From: an uncultured cyanobacterium
GTDB taxonomy: Bacteria > Cyanobacteriota > Cyanobacteriia > Phormidesmidales > Phormidesmidaceae
Assembly (NCBI GenBank): GCA_963793265.1
Contig: CAWBZI010000001.1
Span: 1,344,001 to 1,408,000 of the forward strand
Direction: 5' to 3'
DNA: 64,000 bases
Position numbers and translations under genes: made by a program. Numbering within the stretch: position 1 is the stretch's first letter; the number at the start of each line of letters is the position of its first letter. Below are positions 10,706-18,843 of the stretch, one piece after another. Under the pieces are notes generated by a model that had not been told where the DNA came from, ran no database searches, and was given only the letters and a program-made list of their open reading frames with translations.

Positions 10706-10817
10706 ATCTCCTAATGCATCTCTCATACTTGAGTAATTCGAGACTGCTACCGTCATAGGGCTAAAGCCTTGAACGAAGGTGCGAAAATCACGGCAAAAGG
10801 CACTAGGGGACAAACCG

Positions 10818-12500
10818 ATGACAGACACAGCACAGCTAACATCTGACAAATGGTGGGAAGAGAGCGTCATTTATCAGGTGTATGCGCTGACGTTTGCCGA
10901 TGGCGATGGCGACGGCACGGGGGATCTGCGCGGCATTATCGATCGGCTTGACTATCTAAACGATGGTGACCCCGACAGTAAAACTTCCTTAGGGATAGAC
11001 GCCATCTGGCTCTCACCCATCAACAAGTCTCCCATGATCGACAACGGCTATGACGTTGCTGACTACACAGACGTGTGCTCTACGTTTGGCTCGCTCGCTG
11101 ACTTTGACGAGCTAATTGAAAAGGCACATGAAAGAGGGATCAAAATCATCATGGATTTGGTGGTTAATCACTCTTCTAATCAGCACCCGTGGTTTGTTGA
11201 ATCGCGTCAAAACAGAACCAACCCTAAGGCTGACTGGTACCTGTGGGAAGAGGCCACCGGAGACAGGAAGTATCCTAACAACTGGCAGTCTTACTTTGGT
11301 GGCCCTGGCTGGGCATATTCTCCTGAGCGAGAACAGTTCTACTTTCATACTTTCAATAAAAACCAGCCTGATCTAAACTGGCAAAACCCCGAAGTCGTAG
11401 CAGCGATTCACGACATTATCCGCTTCTGGCTAGACCGTGGCGTAGATGGCTTTCGCCTGGATGCTTCTAGCGTATATAGCAAAGATATTTACTTTCGAGA
11501 TAATCCGATGAAGTATGGTTCTTCGGATAAGAACGATTACAACAACTATCATCATCTATATGACAAGAATTTGCCTGAGAATCACCAGATTTTGAAAGAG
11601 ATGCGGGCGATCGCAGACGAATACGGCAACCGCGTTATCATTGGTGAAACCTTCATCGATAGCCGACTCCACGATTCAGTCGCCTTCTACGGTGTGAATA
11701 ACGACGAGCTGCATTTACCGATTGCCTTCGAGTTTCCCTTTAGCCCCTGGTATCCAGGCTATTTACAAAGAGAGATTGAGAACAAAGAGAAAGTTACGCC
11801 TGCGGGCGCTTGCCCCACTTACTTTCTAGATAATCATGATATTCCTCGGCATATGTCGCGGTGGGTGGAGTGTAGCTTGTGTGTGAATTCGGAGGCGATC
11901 GCAAAAGCCGCTGCTACCATTCTCCTCACCCTTCGAGGCGTCCCCATGCTGTACTACGGCCAAGAGCTGGGCATGGAAGACAATGTGGATATCCCAGCCG
12001 ATAAGCTGCAAGACAAAGCGATTGTAAAAAGCGAGAGTGGTGAAACGCCGCCGCCGCGTGATGGTGCGCGTACGCCGATGCAATGGGATGCCTCTGCCCA
12101 TGCAGGCTTTAGCTTTGGTAAAGATGTAGAGCCTTGGCTACCTGTTCATGCCAATTACAAGGAGGTGAATGTTGCCTCACAGTTACAAGATCCTCAGTCG
12201 ATTTTGAACTTTTATCGGGCGCTGATTCGGGTGCGGAAGCAGAGTGTGGCGTTGAGACGAGGGGGGTGGCGATCGCTCATTCACTATCCTCAAGAGCACA
12301 TGGCCTACCTGCGAGAAGCCGAAGGTGAAACGGTACTCATCGCCATCAACTTCTTTTACGAGCAGCCCTTCACGCTAGACGTACCAATCGACAAAGAAAA
12401 CTGGACAGTACTGCTTTCCACTTCATATGAAGCCGGTAAGCAAGTAGATTTATCAGATACCCTTCAACCCTTTGAAGTCTCTATTTTGAGAAAGATATAG
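10818..12500 (+). CDS. GH13 alpha-glucosidase / oligo-1,6-glucosidase family protein
   Basis: 'VIYQVY..TFAD.DGDG.GDLRGI', 'DNGYDV', 'DLVVNH', 'GVDGFRLD', 'DNHD', 'RDGARTPMQWD'. ATG 10818 follows AGGGG. Confidence 0.92.
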   Translation: MTDTAQLTSDKWWEESVIYQVYALTFADGDGDGTGDLRGIIDRLDYLNDGDPDSKTSLGIDAIWLSPINKSPMIDNGYDVADYTDVCSTFGSLADFDELIEKAHERGIKIIMDLVVNHSSNQHPWFVESRQNRTNPKADWYLWEEATGDRKYPNNWQSYFGGPGWAYSPEREQFYFHTFNKNQPDLNWQNPEVVAAIHDIIRFWLDRGVDGFRLDASSVYSKDIYFRDNPMKYGSSDKNDYNNYHHLYDKNLPENHQILKEMRAIADEYGNRVIIGETFIDSRLHDSVAFYGVNNDELHLPIAFEFPFSPWYPGYLQREIENKEKVTPAGACPTYFLDNHDIPRHMSRWVECSLCVNSEAIAKAAATILLTLRGVPMLYYGQELGMEDNVDIPADKLQDKAIVKSESGETPPPRDGARTPMQWDASAHAGFSFGKDVEPWLPVHANYKEVNVASQLQDPQSILNFYRALIRVRKQSVALRRGGWRSLIHYPQEHMAYLREAEGETVLIAINFFYEQPFTLDVPIDKENWTVLLSTSYEAGKQVDLSDTLQPFEVSILRKI

Positions 12501-12579: not shown

Positions 12580-12852
12580 TCACTTAAACTGGCTGTAGTG
12601 ACTACCAATTGCATGAAGATAGACATGCTCATCATCGAAATCATACACAAGACGATCCCGTTTAGAGATTCGTCTAGCCCAAAGACCTGACAGCTCGTAC
12701 TTTAGTGGTTCTGGCTTACCTGAGCCAACGGTTGGATCGCCCCGCAGCATTTCCCCGATCTGCCTGCGCAAAACCCTATGGGCATTTTTATCTTGCTCCC
12801 GTAGTTTTTCGTAAGCTAGCCAGGTACCAGCTTTGAATACTAAATTCCTCAT
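12580..12852 (-). CDS. yoeB: Txe/YoeB family toxin
   Basis: 'G.GKPEPLKY.LSGLWARRI...DRLVY' and C-terminal 'HY'. Overlaps the antitoxin stop (ATGA). Confidence 0.9.
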   Translation of the reverse strand: MRNLVFKAGTWLAYEKLREQDKNAHRVLRRQIGEMLRGDPTVGSGKPEPLKYELSGLWARRISKRDRLVYDFDDEHVYLHAIGSHYSQFK

Positions 12853-13130
12853 TCAGCATTCACTGACAAAATATCGTCTAGTTCTTGCTGAGTGGGAATG
12901 TAGCCGCCTTGAGCACCGGGCGTCTGCCGAGCCGCTCGAATTTGGCTCATTAAGTATGGATCTTGCAGTATGTAAAGCGTCTCTTGCTCGCTCTCCCAGT
13001 CATCAACACTCATCACAATAAAGTCAGTTCCGTTACGGCGAGTTACTCTTAAAGGCTCGTGGCGACTCGCTGATGACTCTACAAATGTTCTCAGATTATC
13101 GCGGAATTTGTTGACGCTAACGCTTTCCAT
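12849..13130 (-). CDS. yefM: Phd/YefM family antitoxin
   Basis: 'SVN.FR.NL......HEPL.VTRRNG..F.VMS..DW..EQETLY.L'. Confidence 0.9.
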   Translation of the reverse strand: MESVSVNKFRDNLRTFVESSASRHEPLRVTRRNGTDFIVMSVDDWESEQETLYILQDPYLMSQIRAARQTPGAQGGYIPTQQELDDILSVNAE

Positions 13131-13393: not shown

Positions 13394-14077
13394 ATGGCTA
13401 GTAAGGTCACCCCGCTCTACGCTAAAACTCGCATTTTGTTGAACCTATGGGCGTTGGATGAAACGCCCGCTGCCAAATCTCACTTTGTACCCGGTGGTGA
13501 GGCTTACAAAGCGGCGTTAGCGGAGCTGATAAAAGACGATAGTCTTGCAGAAACACCAAAAACTAAGAAGACGAAAGTCTATTCGCTCACGGCGAGCGGG
13601 CAAGACAAGTTAGCAAAGAACTTAGCAGACGAGGCTTTTGCATTTAGCTCAAATATTGGCCCGAAAACGACTAATGCGCTCTTGAGCTGGATAAGAATCA
13701 TCAGAGCCACAGGTTCACAAAATGAGCAAATGAACCAAGCAGCGGCTCAAACCCACGCCGATAGTCAGCCCTCTACCAACGGCAAGGCTTCTCAAATTGA
13801 TTCCTACGACGAATTTACTCAAACAGCTCTAAAAACCTACGATCAGCTCAATCAGGACTACAACCTGGACGACCTAGTACCTATCTATCGAATTCGTCGG
13901 GAAATAGGCGATCGCCTCCCTCGCCAAAAATTCAATGAATGGCTATTAGAAGTGCAGGCCAACGACCTCGTGCAGCTCATGGGCAGCAACCTATCTAACG
14001 TCACCGCCGACCAAATGGAAGACTCTTTGACCATTCCTGGGGCAGGCGCTAGATTCTTTGTGAAGCGGCTATCTTAG
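13394..14077 (+). CDS. winged-helix DNA-binding protein, RcaD-like
   Basis: AAGGA before ATG 13394. N-terminal 'VYSLTASG' wing motif; C-terminal 'LNQDYNLDDLVPIYRIRREIG..LPR..FNEWLLE.QANDL.QL' domain recalled as resembling cyanobacterial RcaD. Confidence 0.6.
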   Translation: MASKVTPLYAKTRILLNLWALDETPAAKSHFVPGGEAYKAALAELIKDDSLAETPKTKKTKVYSLTASGQDKLAKNLADEAFAFSSNIGPKTTNALLSWIRIIRATGSQNEQMNQAAAQTHADSQPSTNGKASQIDSYDEFTQTALKTYDQLNQDYNLDDLVPIYRIRREIGDRLPRQKFNEWLLEVQANDLVQLMGSNLSNVTADQMEDSLTIPGAGARFFVKRLS

Positions 14078-14124
14078 CTAGCGTTAAAGCAACAAGCCCA
14101 CCCATCCTTTCAGCTCTAAATATA

Positions 14125-16173
14125 ATGTCTGCTTCCTCAAAAAGCTCTACCGAGTCTGCTATTTTCTCTGCGCTAACCGCAAACAATCCATTTGAAAGAC
14201 CACCCGTTGTAAGAGAACAAAACATCTGGGGCGAATCTTTCCCAGACATTCCTTCCTTGAATGCAAAGGCTTCTGACAGCCTGTTTAATGCGGTAAGTCA
14301 GGTAAGGTCTGCCGACTCCGAACTAGAAAAAATTACCTCGCTTGTCTTTTTGTCCGACCGAGGCGTTGGGAAAAGCCATGTCATCAAGCGTATTCGTAGA
14401 AGACTACAGGCTAGTAGCGAAGGTATTTTTATTTACGCTAGCGCTGACAGATATGGCAACTTAGCGCTGATCAACTCTCTTTTTCAACAGTCTATTGCCG
14501 AAAGTTTGGAGCAGCAAAGCAATGACGGCGTAACGCAATGGCAAGAGATTGCAGCCTTGGTCGTGGCAGACGCCATGAGATCGGTGAATCCTGACGCCAC
14601 CGTGTTGATAGCCTCAGAACTGGTGAAAAAGTTTGACCGAGCCTATCAAAGTAAGCGATCACAGGGCAAAGACTTAGTAAGAGCCTTGGTTAGAGCTATT
14701 CAGAAGCTCGCGGTTCAAAGGCAGTGGCCTAAGACTGATAGCTATATTCTACGAGCGCTGGTCTGGACACTTTCTGAAGAACGCGGATCTTTGGCAGTGA
14801 AATGGTTAGCCGGGGAAGAACTTGGGGCCGAAGACGCCGCTGATCTACGACTACCCCTCAACAATAGAAGCGAAGGCGAAGCGAACGCTTCAGCACCCAC
14901 CGTTGTAGCCAACCTAATTTCTTTGCTTAACGAATACAAAACGGTTGTTATTTGCTTTGATGAGCTGGATACATCGGCAGTTGATGAAGACGGGCGAGAC
15001 GCACCCTACCTGATTTTGAACTTAGTTAAGCGATTGTTTGATTCGGTTAAGCAGTCATCTGGAGCCAAAGGCGTTGTGATTTTGACCTCAGTGCTGCCTG
15101 ATGCCTGGCGTCAGATCAAGCAGTTGCAGATTTCACTACAGAGAATATCTGCCTACGGCGACCCTATCAGCCTGACGTACTTGAACGAAGAAACCGCAAT
15201 AGATTTGTGCGCGCTAACGCTCGGCAGATTTTATGAGAGAAAAGGCTTAAAACCCAGAAATCCAATATATCCGTTCACCCGAGAAGAGATCGCCGCTTTT
15301 GGTAAAGGGAGGCCATCGGCTCGCGAAGCGCTAAAGTGGTTTGCCGCAAAGCTAGACGAAAAACTAAAGACCATTGAACCACCTTCTCTTTCCTATACGG
15401 AGAGGTTTGAGGTAGCTTACCAAAATGCTCTCGATCAGTTCGACATAGACGATCTCGACAATAACGAAGTAACGGCTTCTGCGCTACGGTTTTGCTTTGA
15501 GAAGATAGCAGGCATCGAGAAGACTAAAGAACAGCCGATAGAAGGCGTCGTAATTAAAAGCGTAGAAGATATTACACCTAGATCTAAGAATGATGGTCGG
15601 CTTCACTTTAAGGTACTAGGGGAAGAGGGTGGCGAGTCTGTAGTGGTTGGGCTCGGTGTCATTCAAGAGACGCACGGACTTTCAGTAGGCGCTGGCTTTA
15701 GGCGGCTGCTCGATAAGGAGACATTTGGGCTGTCGCGAGGATGTTTGGTGCGATCACGTGATCGCAAAATCAAGCGCTGTTGGGACTCTTTTGAGTACTA
15801 CCAACAGCTTATTGCCCAGGGCGGCGAATGGGTAGATCTCACCTCCGAAGAGATCAAACCACTGCTAGCGTTGCAATACGTTTACGAACACCACGAAAAG
15901 TTCGATCTCACCGTCAAACGGCTAGATTCTTTTGCCTTCACACGCAAGCTGCTCCAAAGCAATCCACTAATAAAAGAAATCTTGAGCCGCCCAGAAGGCC
16001 ACGTTGTAGAGGAGGCCCTAGAAGGTGATGAGCTTCAGCGCCTCAGCGATACCGTAGATTTGGAAACGCTTGAGACTGATTTGGCCAGCGATTTAGCCAT
16101 TGAAGACAACGATGAGAAAGCGGCTGAAGTTCGAGCCGACCTAGAAGAATTTGCTGAAGCCCTTGCCGTATGA
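14125..16173 (+). CDS. large P-loop ATPase, RcaG-like
   Basis: N-terminal 'NPF', Walker A variant 'SDRGVGKS', Walker B 'VVICFDELD', 'NPIYPF', and an acidic tail. Confidence 0.8.
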   Translation: MSASSKSSTESAIFSALTANNPFERPPVVREQNIWGESFPDIPSLNAKASDSLFNAVSQVRSADSELEKITSLVFLSDRGVGKSHVIKRIRRRLQASSEGIFIYASADRYGNLALINSLFQQSIAESLEQQSNDGVTQWQEIAALVVADAMRSVNPDATVLIASELVKKFDRAYQSKRSQGKDLVRALVRAIQKLAVQRQWPKTDSYILRALVWTLSEERGSLAVKWLAGEELGAEDAADLRLPLNNRSEGEANASAPTVVANLISLLNEYKTVVICFDELDTSAVDEDGRDAPYLILNLVKRLFDSVKQSSGAKGVVILTSVLPDAWRQIKQLQISLQRISAYGDPISLTYLNEETAIDLCALTLGRFYERKGLKPRNPIYPFTREEIAAFGKGRPSAREALKWFAAKLDEKLKTIEPPSLSYTERFEVAYQNALDQFDIDDLDNNEVTASALRFCFEKIAGIEKTKEQPIEGVVIKSVEDITPRSKNDGRLHFKVLGEEGGESVVVGLGVIQETHGLSVGAGFRRLLDKETFGLSRGCLVRSRDRKIKRCWDSFEYYQQLIAQGGEWVDLTSEEIKPLLALQYVYEHHEKFDLTVKRLDSFAFTRKLLQSNPLIKEILSRPEGHVVEEALEGDELQRLSDTVDLETLETDLASDLAIEDNDEKAAEVRADLEEFAEALAV

Positions 16174-17579
16174 CGATTCTCAACATTTCACTATGCCTAC
16201 CTGAGCTAGATGTTGCGGCGCTGTCTCAGGCGTCGCAGGGCCGTTCTATTGTGGCGATGACCCAGCGGTTTATTGTCCCTGACAAATCGTTCGCACTGCT
16301 CCCGTGTCAGCATCTAGCTGATGATTTGCAGCCCGAGGCTCTGTACCAGGATCGCGTACTCAAAGAACTAGCGCCGCTTAGGTTAGCCAGCGACGAGCCA
16401 GCAATCACAACACACTGGGCTGAGTGCGTATTTTGTCAGCAAATTGTGGATGAGGATGCGATTACAGCGCTAGGCGATCACACCATTTGGAAAACAGAAG
16501 CCCTACTGCATCACCTGCAAACCCACGGCAAGCTATTTCTCTCTTTTCTAAGGGTCTACGAACTGCCTCAAGCGATCGCAATATCAACCGCACCCGTCTG
16601 TGAGCAGCTTTATAAATTCCTACCGTTACCACAATATTTAGAAGTCAGCACTCAAGCCCCAGTTCTAGACGCTGACGAATTCACTGCTGCCAAACAAGCC
16701 GTGCTTGAACCGACAGAAAGAGCGATCGCGCCGCCTAATATCCCAGACGAACATGACATCCCAGCAGATGAAACAGACATTTTAGATGATCCTGACTGGG
16801 TATCGAAGATATCCGAAGTCGGACACTCTAGCGATGGACACACTTTTGAAAAATTAGTCAGAAAAGGACTCATAGAATTGGGATTCAGCAACTCGTCAGA
16901 GCAGTTAACCGCTAGCCTGGATCCTAAAGCAACAGGCGGCGCAGGCGGATTAGATTTTTACGCCGATTTGCCTTATAAAGTTGTCGGTGAATGTAAAGCC
17001 AGTAAGAAAAAAGTAATCAACAGCGATGCGGCTACTCAGTTGGTTAGGCTAGGACTTCAAAATCTACAGCACGACGAGTATCCGAACTGCATCAAAATAG
17101 TTGTAGCTGCAGGGAGACTAACGGCAAAAGCAAATCAAATTGCTGAGGGACATCGCATTAATATCATCCGCCCCGAAGTTATGCAACAGCTAGTAAATAG
17201 TAAGCTAACGCTCGAAAACGACTTTGATCTGTTTCAACTCAAAGGTTCTTTAGAATCAGAGCCTTTTGGCGAAGCAGCCAATCAAAAAATCAACCAATAT
17301 GTAGACTGGTGCCTCGCTGAGTGGACAGAAAGGAAGGAGTACAAACAGCTTGTTCAGCAGGCAGTCAATACATTAAAGGAACTCTCAGAGCAGCCAATCG
17401 CTTCACAATCCGAGGATTTCTCAGTCAAAGAGATTCGGGCACATCACAACGCTAAATATCAGCCAATTGTTAAAACTGCTAGAATGGCTCGAATTTTAGA
17501 AAACCAGTATATTCAGGGCAGTCTTATCAACAAAAGAACTCACACAGATGGCTCTATTGGCTACTATCTAAAGAGCTAG
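16170..17579 (+). CDS. DUF1802-like domain fused to an Mrr-like PD-(D/E)XK endonuclease
   Basis: N-terminal 'AL.QGRSI....RF', 'THWA', 'HTIW', 'FLRVYEL'; nuclease motifs 'FEKLVRKGLIELGF', 'GGLDFY', 'VGECKAS', 'ATQL'. ATGA overlap with the ATPase. Confidence 0.75.
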   Translation: MTILNISLCLPELDVAALSQASQGRSIVAMTQRFIVPDKSFALLPCQHLADDLQPEALYQDRVLKELAPLRLASDEPAITTHWAECVFCQQIVDEDAITALGDHTIWKTEALLHHLQTHGKLFLSFLRVYELPQAIAISTAPVCEQLYKFLPLPQYLEVSTQAPVLDADEFTAAKQAVLEPTERAIAPPNIPDEHDIPADETDILDDPDWVSKISEVGHSSDGHTFEKLVRKGLIELGFSNSSEQLTASLDPKATGGAGGLDFYADLPYKVVGECKASKKKVINSDAATQLVRLGLQNLQHDEYPNCIKIVVAAGRLTAKANQIAEGHRINIIRPEVMQQLVNSKLTLENDFDLFQLKGSLESEPFGEAANQKINQYVDWCLAEWTERKEYKQLVQQAVNTLKELSEQPIASQSEDFSVKEIRAHHNAKYQPIVKTARMARILENQYIQGSLINKRTHTDGSIGYYLKS

Positions 17580-17640: not shown

Positions 17641-18090
17641 ATGAAAAAGTCCTCACTCTACGAAGCCGACTTTTACGCCTGGACTCAAGAGCAGTCTAAG
17701 CTGATTGCGCTGGGAAAATGGCAGGGACTAGATGCTGCAAATCTAGTAGAGGAAATCGAATCGTTGGGCCGCAAAGAACGTCAGGAACTCAGGAATCGGC
17801 TGGGCATCTTGATCGGTCATTTGTTGAAGTGGCAGTTTCAACCCGGCCAAAAGAGTAATAGCTGGAGCAATAGCTGGCGCGGCACTATTCGCGAGCAAAG
17901 AAAACAGATTAATTTACTCATTAAAGATAGCCCTAGCCTTAAGCCATATCTAAAGGAAGCGTTGAATGATGCTTATGACTTGGGTATTTCGTTAGCCATT
18001 AAGGAAACGCAGCTATCAGAGGAAACCTTGCCAGACACCTGCCCGTATCGATTAAGTGATATTTTAGAACCTGGATTTTTACCTACTTAA
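17641..18090 (+). CDS. DUF29 family protein
   Basis: 'LYE.DFYAW..EQ', 'LD..NL.EEIESLGR.E..EL..RL..L..HLLKWQ.Q', 'SPSLK.Y', 'P..CPY'. Confidence 0.92.
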   Translation: MKKSSLYEADFYAWTQEQSKLIALGKWQGLDAANLVEEIESLGRKERQELRNRLGILIGHLLKWQFQPGQKSNSWSNSWRGTIREQRKQINLLIKDSPSLKPYLKEALNDAYDLGISLAIKETQLSEETLPDTCPYRLSDILEPGFLPT

Positions 18091-18167
18091 GGCGCTGCTA
18101 CGTGAGGATTAGAGAACCGTCGATATTAACGGCGTACTCTATGATTGAGGAAAGCGAGGTAACTGTT

Positions 18168-18434
18168 ATGAACCAGCAGCAGATTGAGGCGATCGCGCAA
18201 ACTATCAGCACCCTGTCCGACGAGGATAGGCAAGCATTAGAGCAGACACTACAGCAATCAAACGGTTCAGGTTCAACTGAACAAACTAACAACGCACGAG
18301 AAGTACCCGAACAAGAGACACTTAGCGACTTTTTTGAAGCGGTAAAAGCGATTCGAGTCGAAGGCGGCCCCCCAGATTGGTCGAGTAGAATAAACGACTA
18401 CTTAAACGAAGATGCTGTTTCAGAGCATGACTAA
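18168..18434 (+). CDS. putative antitoxin of the downstream PIN toxin
   Basis: GAGG before ATG 18168; C-terminal 'GPPDWS..I.DYL' motif of the kind seen upstream of PIN genes. Overlaps the PIN start. Confidence 0.6.
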   Translation: MNQQQIEAIAQTISTLSDEDRQALEQTLQQSNGSGSTEQTNNAREVPEQETLSDFFEAVKAIRVEGGPPDWSSRINDYLNEDAVSEHD

Positions 18435-18843
18435 GGTTTTTCTGGATTCGGCCTACTTGATTGCACTGGTGTCTACCTCAGACAAATTTCATTTAAAAGC
18501 GAACCAACTTTCTCGCTGGCTAATTGATAGCCAAGTCGAAATCGTGACGACCCGAGCAGTTTTATTAGAAGTCGGCAACGCCTTATCAAAAGAACGCTAT
18601 CGTCACATCGCAGTCGAACTTCTAAGCAGGATAGAGAGAAATATCAACATTGAGATTGTGCCACTGTCAGAGCGCCTGTATACAGAAGCTGTAGCGCTAT
18701 TCAAATCTCGCTCGGACAAAGAATGGGGTCTTGTTGACTGCGTGTCTTATGTCGCGATGACCGAGCAGGGCATCACTCAAGTGCTAACCTCTGATAAGCA
18801 TTTTAAGCAAATGGGATTTGAAGCAATGCTTTTAGATGATTAG
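18427..18843 (+). CDS. vapC: VapC-family PIN-domain toxin
   Basis: 'VFLDS..LIAL....D.FH', 'VLLE', 'GLVDCVS...M', 'LTSDKHF.QMG': the acidic PIN residues are present. Confidence 0.9.
   Translation: MTKVFLDSAYLIALVSTSDKFHLKANQLSRWLIDSQVEIVTTRAVLLEVGNALSKERYRHIAVELLSRIERNINIEIVPLSERLYTEAVALFKSRSDKEWGLVDCVSYVAMTEQGITQVLTSDKHFKQMGFEAMLLDD

What the first reader, a model, noticed from the sequence alone, without database searches (positions are those of the whole stretch)
13394..17579. Candidate undescribed anti-phage/restriction system: wHTH protein + P-loop ATPase + DUF1802-Mrr-like nuclease
Seen: three co-oriented genes (47-nt gap, then an ATGA overlap). The ATPase has Walker A SDRGVGKS and Walker B VICFDELD. 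The third protein has a complete PD-(D/E)XK set (FEKLV...GGLDFY...GECK...TQL) after a DUF1802-like domain, and a possible C-terminal winged helix. TA modules flank the operon on both sides. Recalled: the first two proteins resemble the RcaD/RcaG pair described as phycobiliprotein regulators in Calothrix/Fremyella. Inference: here the pair is coupled to a nuclease effector, which suggests the family is a defence module. DUF1802 may be a PUA/ASCH-like reader of modified or damaged bases, and no methyltransferase is present, which fits modification-dependent restriction.
Basis: partly seen in the sequence, partly recalled or inferred. Interest (0 to 1): 0.85.

Follow-up and report, generated by a model that had tools for sequence, protein, structure and literature searches.

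The report
Cyanobacterial nuclease with swappable ATPase sensor
Three linked genes (a DNA-binding protein, an ATPase and a DNA-cutting enzyme) form a probably immune module in many filamentous cyanobacteria, in which the ATPase part is swapped between lineages while the cutting part stays constant; a 2024 paper predicted this gene set in one sentence, and it has not been tested.

Summary
In detail: a two-winged-helix protein, an ORC/Cdc6-type AAA+ ATPase and a DUF1802 (ASCH-like)–PD-(D/E)XK–winged-helix nuclease, with TA genes on both sides. The order is fixed (44 of 48 fetched ATPase loci in a 250-genome sample). PADLOC has no model for it. Rakesh et al. 2024 (PMC10853773) already mention Orc/Cdc6 genes coupled to an ASCH-REase and a multi-wHTH protein, untested; this scan also found the family on other DNA (e1-5274900). 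The first two genes are paralogues, not orthologues, of RcaD/RcaG, which mostly lead a nuclease-FtsK gene. Added here: the operon sits at fixed lineage-specific sites, not in defence islands; a block covering the second winged helix, the ATPase and the start of the ASCH domain is exchanged (ATPase 26–95% identical where a flanking protein is 89–98%) between constant anchors; some ATPases carry a SeqA-like domain or are fused to the nuclease without ASCH; ATPase breakage with intact nuclease is tolerated (5 of 43). Best reading: an ATPase-gated anti-invader nuclease whose specificity lies mainly in the ATPase block. Pure ASCH-read modification-dependent restriction is weaker.

The parts
13394..14077 (+). 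Gene 1, 227 aa, two predicted winged-helix domains (about aa 1-105 and 132-227); RcaD paralogue lacking the first ~90 aa of RcaD-type proteins
   Evidence: PadR E 0.027, weak; hhalign 97.9% to RcaD-type, aligned from template position 92; only weak WH hits; not folded
13394..13708 (+). WH1 of gene 1: constant left anchor of the exchanged block in relatives
   Evidence: median 89% identity within both fixed loci; tree follows lineage
14125..16173 (+). Gene 2, 682 aa, ORC/Cdc6-clade AAA+ ATPase (aa ~15-420), alpha/beta domain of REase-like strand order without catalytic residues (aa ~447-588), acidic tail
   Evidence: AAA_16 E 8.5e-8; Cdc6 Z 13.4, rmsd 3.4, 241 aligned; TnsC Z 12.8; BrxC Z 12.2
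14353..14376 (+). Walker A (aa 77-84)
14947..14964 (+). Walker B (aa 275-280)
   Evidence: E280 is Q in 8 of 40 sampled homologues
15463..15888 (+). Putative inactive REase-fold domain of the ATPase (inferred from secondary-structure order only)
   Evidence: sequence searches blank
16170..17579 (+). Gene 3, 469 aa, DUF1802 (ASCH/PUA-like) + PD-(D/E)XK nuclease + winged helix
16170..16709 (+). DUF1802 / ASCH-like domain (aa 1-180), lacking the motif of stand-alone DUF1802
   Evidence: Pfam E 2.4e-20; EOLA1/CXorf40A Z 10.4, rmsd 3.3, 137 aligned
16782..17324 (+). FokI/BspD6I-like catalytic domain (aa 205-385) with E227, D262, E274, K276, Q290; constant right anchor in relatives
   Evidence: FokI Z 13.1, rmsd 2.5, 147 aligned
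17337..17576 (+). C-terminal winged helix (aa 390-469), variable among relatives
12580..13130 (-). YefM-YoeB toxin-antitoxin pair (flank, not conserved with the operon)
17641..18090 (+). DUF29 gene (flank); also stands at the empty site of G267
18102..18843 (+). Small gene + PIN toxin, VapBC-like pair (flank)

Best explanation
An ATPase-gated anti-invader DNase. Shown by computation: the three genes are one unit; the nuclease keeps a full active site; a block made of the second winged helix, the whole ATPase and the start of the ASCH domain is replaced among relatives by recombination between two constant anchors (WH1 and the catalytic domain). Inferred: the winged-helix protein binds DNA and loads the ORC/Cdc6-like ATPase (it supplies in trans the winged helix that this ATPase lacks); on meeting its trigger the ATPase oligomerises on DNA, as ORC, TnsC and MuB do, and recruits or dimerises the FokI-like nuclease, which is silent alone; DNA is then cut near the assembly (invader DNA, or host DNA as abortive infection). 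Specificity lies mainly in the exchanged block, so the alleles are different sensors wired to one effector. The trigger is unknown: a DNA sequence or methylation state (SeqA-like fusions, ASCH domain) and an invader protein or replication structure are about equally open.
For: Order WH-ATPase-nuclease in 44 of 48 fetched ATPase loci of the 250-genome sample, 77 of 79 nuclease-anchored loci have the ATPase, 63 of 64 ATPase-anchored metagenome loci with downstream DNA have the nuclease by script. Natural ATPase-REase-WH fusions in three distinct 50% clusters, two of them seen in several records. At one site, ATPase identity 26-95% (median 44) against 89-98% for a flanking protein in 15 Microcoleus-type loci; 41-98% (median 49) against 83-99% in 10 Nostoc-type loci; sharp DNA breakpoints. 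AU test rejects lineage clades for the ATPase (p 2e-5 and 1e-59) but not for the catalytic domain (p 0.58). Tandem alleles, some sharing one nuclease (L204, L234). In G020 the interior is replaced by an AlbA_2-TPR gene and a retron-type RT, leaving both anchors. ATPase broken with full-length nuclease in 5 of 43 sampled loci, nuclease broken in 0, which fits an activator, not an antidote. Patchy in the own family. Paralogous pair also leads a nuclease gene. Same role predicted in PMC10853773 (passages).
Against: No experiment; no protection or cleavage data found. Very high prevalence in two families (25 of 32 and 10 of 12 genomes), fixed chromosomal sites, and no match in viral contigs or plasmids are unlike most defence systems. 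Nearest neighbours are mostly housekeeping, Uma2 and TA genes. The ATPase breaks may partly be assembly errors. In the Phormidesmis-type locus of this window the nuclease (43-71%) varies more than the ATPase (58-74%) (6 loci), so the block pattern is shown for relatives, not for this lineage. The inactive-REase call for the ATPase tail rests on strand order only. RcaD was reported as a promoter-binding regulator (second-hand, PMC2799420 passages).
Confidence: 0.55

Rival explanations
1. Type IV (modification-dependent) restriction enzyme: the DUF1802/ASCH domain (or the C-terminal winged helix, as in DpnI) reads a modified base and directs the nuclease; the ATPase and WH protein are only motor or accessory, as McrB is for McrC.
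For: ASCH/PUA-like fold fused to a PD-(D/E)XK domain (MspJI is the top Foldseek row but E 4e-3); no conserved methyltransferase; SeqA-like domain on some ATPases points to methylation sensing; conserved aromatic residues W83, W107, F171; ASCH called 'modified DNA-binding' in PMC10853773.
Confidence: 0.2
2. Housekeeping role: a DNA repair, replication or transcription-control complex (as reported for RcaD/RcaG), with the nuclease acting on damaged or branched host DNA.
For: High prevalence and fixed sites in large-genome filamentous lineages; chromosomal only; RcaD and a related 'all4300-type' protein bind promoter DNA (PMC2799420 passages); catalytically decayed stand-alone copies are kept as long ORFs.
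Against: Allele exchange across families and deep polymorphism at one site; loss, breakage and replacement by a retron-type cassette; absent from most genomes of the own family.
Confidence: 0.1
3. Self/non-self or addiction module: alleles act as incompatibility types that destroy DNA or cells carrying another allele, or the nuclease is a toxin held back by the ATPase.
For: Deep balanced polymorphism at one site; TA genes gather at the same site.
Against: Several different alleles coexist in tandem in one genome; ATPase loss with an intact nuclease is seen, and one stand-alone copy with a full active site exists (L264).
Confidence: 0.1
4. A mobile element remnant: TnsC-like ATPase plus TnsA-like nuclease-winged-helix protein.
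For: TnsC and MuB are among the fold matches (Z 12.8, 11.9); TnsA has a PD-(D/E)XK + winged-helix build (recalled).
Against: No transposase or integrase recurs among neighbours; no terminal repeats around the operon; fixed sites; not on plasmids or viral contigs.
Confidence: 0.05

Closest known systems
Predicted Orc/Cdc6 + ASCH-REase + multi-wHTH neighbourhoods (Rakesh, Aravind, Krishnan, NAR 2024, PMC10853773; passages read, supplement not readable)
   Same: Orc/Cdc6 ATPase in an operon with an REase fused to ASCH and a multi-winged-helix protein; anti-selfish-element role proposed.
   Different: One sentence, no name, no taxon, no test; says triple wHTH whereas gene 1 here looks double; allele exchange, SeqA-like fusion, ATPase-REase fusion and the RcaD link are not in the passages read ('RcaD' and 'cyanobacteria' occur 0 times in the main text).
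RcaD/RcaG pair and the Orc/Cdc6-coupled HerA/FtsK capture systems
   Same: Homologous WH protein and ATPase in the same order, followed by a PD-(D/E)XK nuclease gene.
   Different: Paralogous clade (21-24% ATPase identity); third gene is [3'-5' exonuclease]-PD-(D/E)XK-FtsK-alpha-FtsK, not ASCH-REase-WH; WH protein about 60-90 aa longer.
PUA-superfamily type IV restriction enzymes (MspJI, VcaM4I, TagI) and DpnI-type REase-wH enzymes
   Same: Reader-like domain fused to a nuclease, no cognate methyltransferase; REase followed by winged helix.
   Different: Those act as single genes; here an ATPase and a WH protein are nearly always linked, and reading of a modified base is not shown.
BREX (BrxA, BrxC/BrxD) and SspBC(D)
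   Same: Multi-wHTH protein next to an ORC/Cdc6 AAA+ ATPase (BrxC Z 12.2; PMC12839542 passages).
   Different: No PglZ, methyltransferase or phosphorothioate genes recur; no PADLOC match.
Avs/AVAST STAND systems
   Same: AAA+/STAND-like ATPase gating a nuclease by oligomerisation (works-like analogy; Avs3 Z 11.8).
   Different: No TPR sensor repeats; effector is a separate gene downstream; extra WH protein.

Membership tests
Orc/Cdc6 + ASCH-REase + multi-wHTH neighbourhood (PMC10853773) | Orc/Cdc6-clade AAA+ ATPase | tested here: met
   best fold matches Cdc6/Orc1, Z 13.0-13.4
Orc/Cdc6 + ASCH-REase + multi-wHTH neighbourhood (PMC10853773) | REase fused to an ASCH domain in the same operon | tested here: met
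Orc/Cdc6 + ASCH-REase + multi-wHTH neighbourhood (PMC10853773) | DndG-like triple winged-helix protein | tested here: inconclusive
   gene 1 aligns to RcaD-type proteins from their position 92 on, so two WH domains are likely; not folded, PDB hits weak
Orc/Cdc6 + ASCH-REase + multi-wHTH neighbourhood (PMC10853773) | Inactive REase domain after the AAA+ core (stated there for the related FtsK-linked ATPases) | tested here: inconclusive
   alpha-beta-beta-beta-alpha-beta-alpha-beta order in the model; no PDB, Pfam or profile match; domain not folded alone
Orc/Cdc6 + ASCH-REase + multi-wHTH neighbourhood (PMC10853773) | Listed among the paper's members (Supplementary Data S1) | not testable with these tools
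   supplement not readable
RcaD/RcaG HerA-FtsK capture operon | Homology of genes 1 and 2 to RcaD-type and RcaG-type proteins | tested here: met
   hhalign 97.9% (184 columns) and 99.8% (534 columns); RcaD name from NCBI annotation of the paralogue
RcaD/RcaG HerA-FtsK capture operon | HerA/FtsK translocase gene in the operon | tested here: not met
   no FtsK domain in the three proteins; that gene type not found in G000 with a profile of 11 sequences
Type IV modification-dependent restriction enzyme | Nuclease domain with intact active site | tested here: met
Type IV modification-dependent restriction enzyme | No cognate methyltransferase | tested here: met
   no methyltransferase-like cluster recognised among recurrent neighbours of 80 loci; 38 of 103 neighbour representatives scanned with Pfam, none a DNA methyltransferase
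Type IV modification-dependent restriction enzyme | Cleaves modified but not unmodified DNA | not testable with these tools
   needs biochemistry
ASCH amidohydrolase (YqfB / GKER type) | G-K-x-x-[E/T]-x-R octapeptide with catalytic Lys and Glu/Thr (10.64898/2026.02.27.708502, passages) | tested here: not met
   no such motif in the fused DUF1802 alignment
BREX / BREX-related | PglZ plus methyltransferase or other modification genes | tested here: not met
   no PADLOC match, no such recurrent neighbour
Tn7-like transposon | DDE transposase and terminal repeats | tested here: not met

The most novel reading that the evidence does not exclude
A resident innate-immune locus of filamentous cyanobacteria built like a polymorphic resistance gene: a constant nuclease effector served by an interchangeable ORC/Cdc6-type sensor cassette whose allele classes are shared across families, can be stacked in tandem, and take on reader modules such as a SeqA-like hemimethylation domain. 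It would recognise foreign DNA by its replication or methylation state without any dedicated methyltransferase, and RcaD/RcaG, long filed as light-acclimation regulators, would be the sister immune system.
Probability: 0.3. Interest if true: 0.8.

Novelty: new member of a known kind. Interest (0 to 1): 0.52.

Why it matters
Filamentous and bloom-forming cyanobacteria (25 of 32 and 10 of 12 sampled genomes in two families) carry this module, yet defence-system finders do not see it. If it restricts phage or incoming DNA, it bears on cyanophage ecology and on why many of these strains resist transformation. The natural allele series, the ASCH-less fusions and the SeqA-like fusions give ready-made tests of what an ORC/Cdc6-type immune ATPase senses and whether ASCH domains read DNA modifications, which is still unproven. 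It also questions the regulator label of RcaD/RcaG.

Tried and rejected
PADLOC and NCBIfam: no match for the three proteins except weak P-loop hits (Sll1717 family E 2.7e-10, DS41 E 6e-4, both far below cut-off). PDB sequence searches with the gene 1 and gene 3 profiles: nothing significant. Inactive-REase test of the ATPase tail: hhalign to the nuclease domain and to RcaG-type tails, PDB and Pfam all blank; ESM Atlas gave only unnamed cyanobacterial clusters and DUF1802 clusters. Complex prediction of ATPase aa 420-630 with protein 3: no answer, score 0.00, no evidence either way. Viral fold library: no match at E<=0.001. No relative in viral contigs or plasmids. No terminal repeats; promoter and terminator scans below chance. 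Rfam found no RNA family at the retron-type insert in L145. No RNA holder listed. The idea that the nuclease's winged helix is the split-off ORC winged helix was not supported by profile comparison. Defence-island enrichment was not tested statistically; 38 of 103 neighbour representatives were scanned. Literature searches: DUF1802 (one unrelated paper, listing only), RcaD/RcaG (12, 116), ASCH+Mrr+cyanobacteria (44), CDC6+wHTH+REase (46), bioRxiv ASCH (60), SeqA+Cdc6+ASCH (115), cyanophage defence (117): no experimental study of this operon found; the library lacks most subscription papers. The careful ATPase tree did not finish; quick trees were used, L073 left out of the AU tests as a long branch.


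Full report
Observation. Pfam gives AAA_16 for protein 2, DUF1802 (E 2.4e-20) and a borderline Mrr_cat for protein 3, and YefM/YoeB, DUF29 and PIN for the flanks. PADLOC has no match and NCBIfam only weak P-loop hits. Contigs of public DNA runs cover the three genes with few differences. The nearest named relatives are Phormidesmis-type cyanobacterial MAGs.

Anatomy. The AlphaFold2 model of protein 3 (pLDDT 90.8) has three parts: an ASCH/PUA-like domain (EOLA1/CXorf40A Z 10.4, rmsd 3.3, 137 aligned; ZmASCH and TRIP4 in Foldseek at E about 0.007-0.02), a FokI/BspD6I-like catalytic domain (Z 13.1, rmsd 2.5, 147 aligned) and a winged helix. The model of protein 2 (pLDDT 88.4) matches Cdc6/Orc1 best (Z 13.4, rmsd 3.4, 241 aligned), then TnsC, BrxC and MuB; its C-terminal third has the strand order of an REase fold without catalytic residues, but no search confirmed that. 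Protein 1 was not folded; its alignment shows two conserved blocks around a linker, read as two winged helices (inference).

Conservation. Of 79 loci found with the nuclease, 77 have the ATPase directly upstream; the other two start at the contig end. That scan used active-site patterns, so it could not find dead copies. In a sample of 250 other cyanobacterial genomes I fetched 48 loci of near full-length ATPases: 44 carry all three genes in order and 4, all in one family, have neither partner; two further matches on fragmented contigs were not fetched. Of 80 ATPase-anchored metagenome loci, 64 of 66 with upstream DNA have gene 1 and 63 of 64 with downstream DNA have the nuclease by script; the one miss (L256) is a tandem arrangement that does hold it. 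Prevalence is uneven: 25 of 32 and 10 of 12 genomes in two families, 0 of 107 in another, and about 8 of 61 in the window's own family. No relative was found in viral contigs or plasmids.

Relation to RcaD/RcaG. Weak ATPase matches led to a paralogous pair whose first protein NCBI names 'transcription factor RcaD'. Profile comparison links it to gene 1 (97.9%, E 3e-13) and its ATPase to gene 2 (99.8%, E 3e-30). In 11 of 15 such loci (7 checked with Pfam) and 6 of 7 in the own family the third gene is a PD-(D/E)XK-FtsK fusion, often with a 3'-5' exonuclease. So the recalled resemblance is real but at paralogue level, and both clades lead a nuclease gene. The Lyngbya paper (PMC2799420, passages) already distinguishes an RcaD-like and a shorter 'all4300-like' group, each followed by an RcaG-like ATPase; the original RcaD paper was not read.

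Prior art. [quoted passage not shown] That is this architecture. The supplement could not be read, so membership and any detail there (taxa, fusions) remain unseen and may overlap with what I report as added. PMC12839542 (abstract, outline, passages) and PMC12707154 (passages) add nothing specific in the passages seen. Earlier notes of this scan cover the same family (e1-5274900) and the RcaD-FtsK sister (e1-3083010); I had found the paper and the sister operon before seeing the second note.

Fixed site, exchanged core. Neighbour clustering shows lineage-specific fixed sites among housekeeping genes; in this lineage the site lies between nagA and the Mg-protoporphyrin methyltransferase-like gene (names recalled from sequence likeness), and it is empty in G267. 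Among 15 loci at the Microcoleus-type site a flanking protein is 89-98% identical but the ATPase 26-95% (median 44); among 10 Nostoc-type loci 83-99% against 41-98% (median 49). By domain, WH1 (median 89% in both) and the catalytic domain (86%, 92%) are constant, while the ATPase core (45%, 49%), ASCH (72%, 59%) and the last winged helix (55%, 69%) vary; DNA identity falls from over 90% to 40-75% inside the second half of gene 1 and returns inside or just after the ASCH domain. Quick trees of 30 rows: WH1, WH2 and the catalytic domain need the minimum of 2 lineage changes, the ATPase 4; AU tests reject lineage clades for the ATPase (p 2e-5, 1e-59) but not for the Nostoc-type catalytic domains (p 0.58), L073 left out. 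These groups were chosen by locus, and kin are not independent. Against generality: in the six loci of the window's own type the nuclease varies more than the ATPase.

Natural variants that bear on mechanism. (a) Three ~895-aa proteins fuse the ATPase to the catalytic domain and winged helix with no DUF1802. (b) Ten of 19 long ATPases examined end in a SeqA-C-like domain (Pfam E about 1e-5 in 3 of 4 loci tested; alignment; SeqA structures E 0.001-0.09), and three more occur in the 80 metagenome loci, one in place of the REase-like tail. SeqA binds hemimethylated GATC (PMC12707154 passage); whether these domains do is untested, and the window's ATPase has none. (c) Tandem alleles, sometimes two WH-ATPase or ATPase units before one nuclease. 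(d) In G020 only the two anchors remain, with an AlbA_2-TPR gene and a retron-type reverse transcriptase between them. (e) ATPase interrupted with a full-length nuclease in 5 of 43 sampled loci (2 in-frame stops, 3 frameshifts), nuclease interrupted in none; in the other two sets breaks were few and mixed (4 of 64, 2 of 41; sets overlap). (f) Stand-alone nuclease copies: 12 loci in the own genus and one elsewhere, all but one lacking the full catalytic set. (g) The fused DUF1802 lacks the motif of stand-alone DUF1802 and the ASCH catalytic octapeptide (10.64898/2026.02.27.708502, passages); a DNA-reader role for ASCH is called unconfirmed in 10.1101/2023.06.07.544091 (passages).

Mechanism. 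Shown: linkage, folds, intact active sites, block exchange, fusions. Inferred: the WH protein loads the ATPase on DNA, the ATPase assembles when triggered and licenses a nuclease that is silent alone, and the exchanged block sets specificity (0.55). A pure ASCH-directed type IV enzyme (0.2), a housekeeping complex (0.1), an incompatibility or addiction module (0.1) and a transposon remnant (0.05) fit less well. The trigger is not identified.

Verdict. Real and well-defined, works like an ATPase-gated restriction or Avs-type system, and is best filed as a member of a predicted but unnamed and untested kind. The allele-exchange pattern and the SeqA-like and ASCH-less variants are not in the passages I could read and make it directly testable. 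Interest 0.52.

Noticed in passing
G000:C5:284043-285539 (L178, L259): Stand-alone 498-aa copy of gene 3, 27% identical, with a decayed active site; related stand-alone copies in 11 more loci of the genus, often beside the same HAD-like gene, kept as long ORFs. Possible decoy or regulator.
   Followed up: partly
G000:C1:1882790-1883302: Only a short RcaD-like gene remains at the site where relatives (L164-L166) carry RcaD-RcaG-nuclease/FtsK; the rest was not found in this genome.
   Followed up: partly
L081:2610-4526, L082:8563-10473, L083:8285-10195, L080:8858-10894: Full-length ATPase homologues without WH or nuclease genes; three lie between a putative membrane protein gene and a vWA (TerF-like) gene.
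   Followed up: partly
L145:4226-7380 (G020): Operon interior replaced by an AlbA_2/Schlafen-TPR gene and a retron-type reverse transcriptase; no Rfam RNA found.
   Followed up: partly
L090:6403-11429, L098:6131-11116: RcaD-type gene followed by two RcaG-type ATPases and no nuclease-FtsK gene.
   Followed up: no
L134-L141 ATPases: Walker B glutamate replaced by glutamine in 8 of 40 sampled ATPases, one allele class; may be an ATP-binding switch rather than a hydrolase.
   Followed up: no
L146-L159: Stand-alone ~200-aa DUF1802 genes are common in cyanobacteria, highly conserved, in housekeeping contexts; likely a separate ASCH-like enzyme of unknown substrate.
   Followed up: partly
P0415, P0417, P0419: ATPase homologues with another, unidentified ~200-aa C-terminal domain.
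   Followed up: no
L110:4491-6664: GmrSD-type and RelA/SpoT-like genes directly downstream of one copy of the operon.
   Followed up: no
window 10779-12500: A 573-aa glycoside hydrolase-like gene (by likeness, not scanned) lies in the same variable interval as the operon and the TA genes and is absent from the related loci examined.
   Followed up: no
window 16000-16170: Acidic tail of the ATPase; six of the differences in the long run-X2 contig over this gene cluster at 16065-16107.
   Followed up: no
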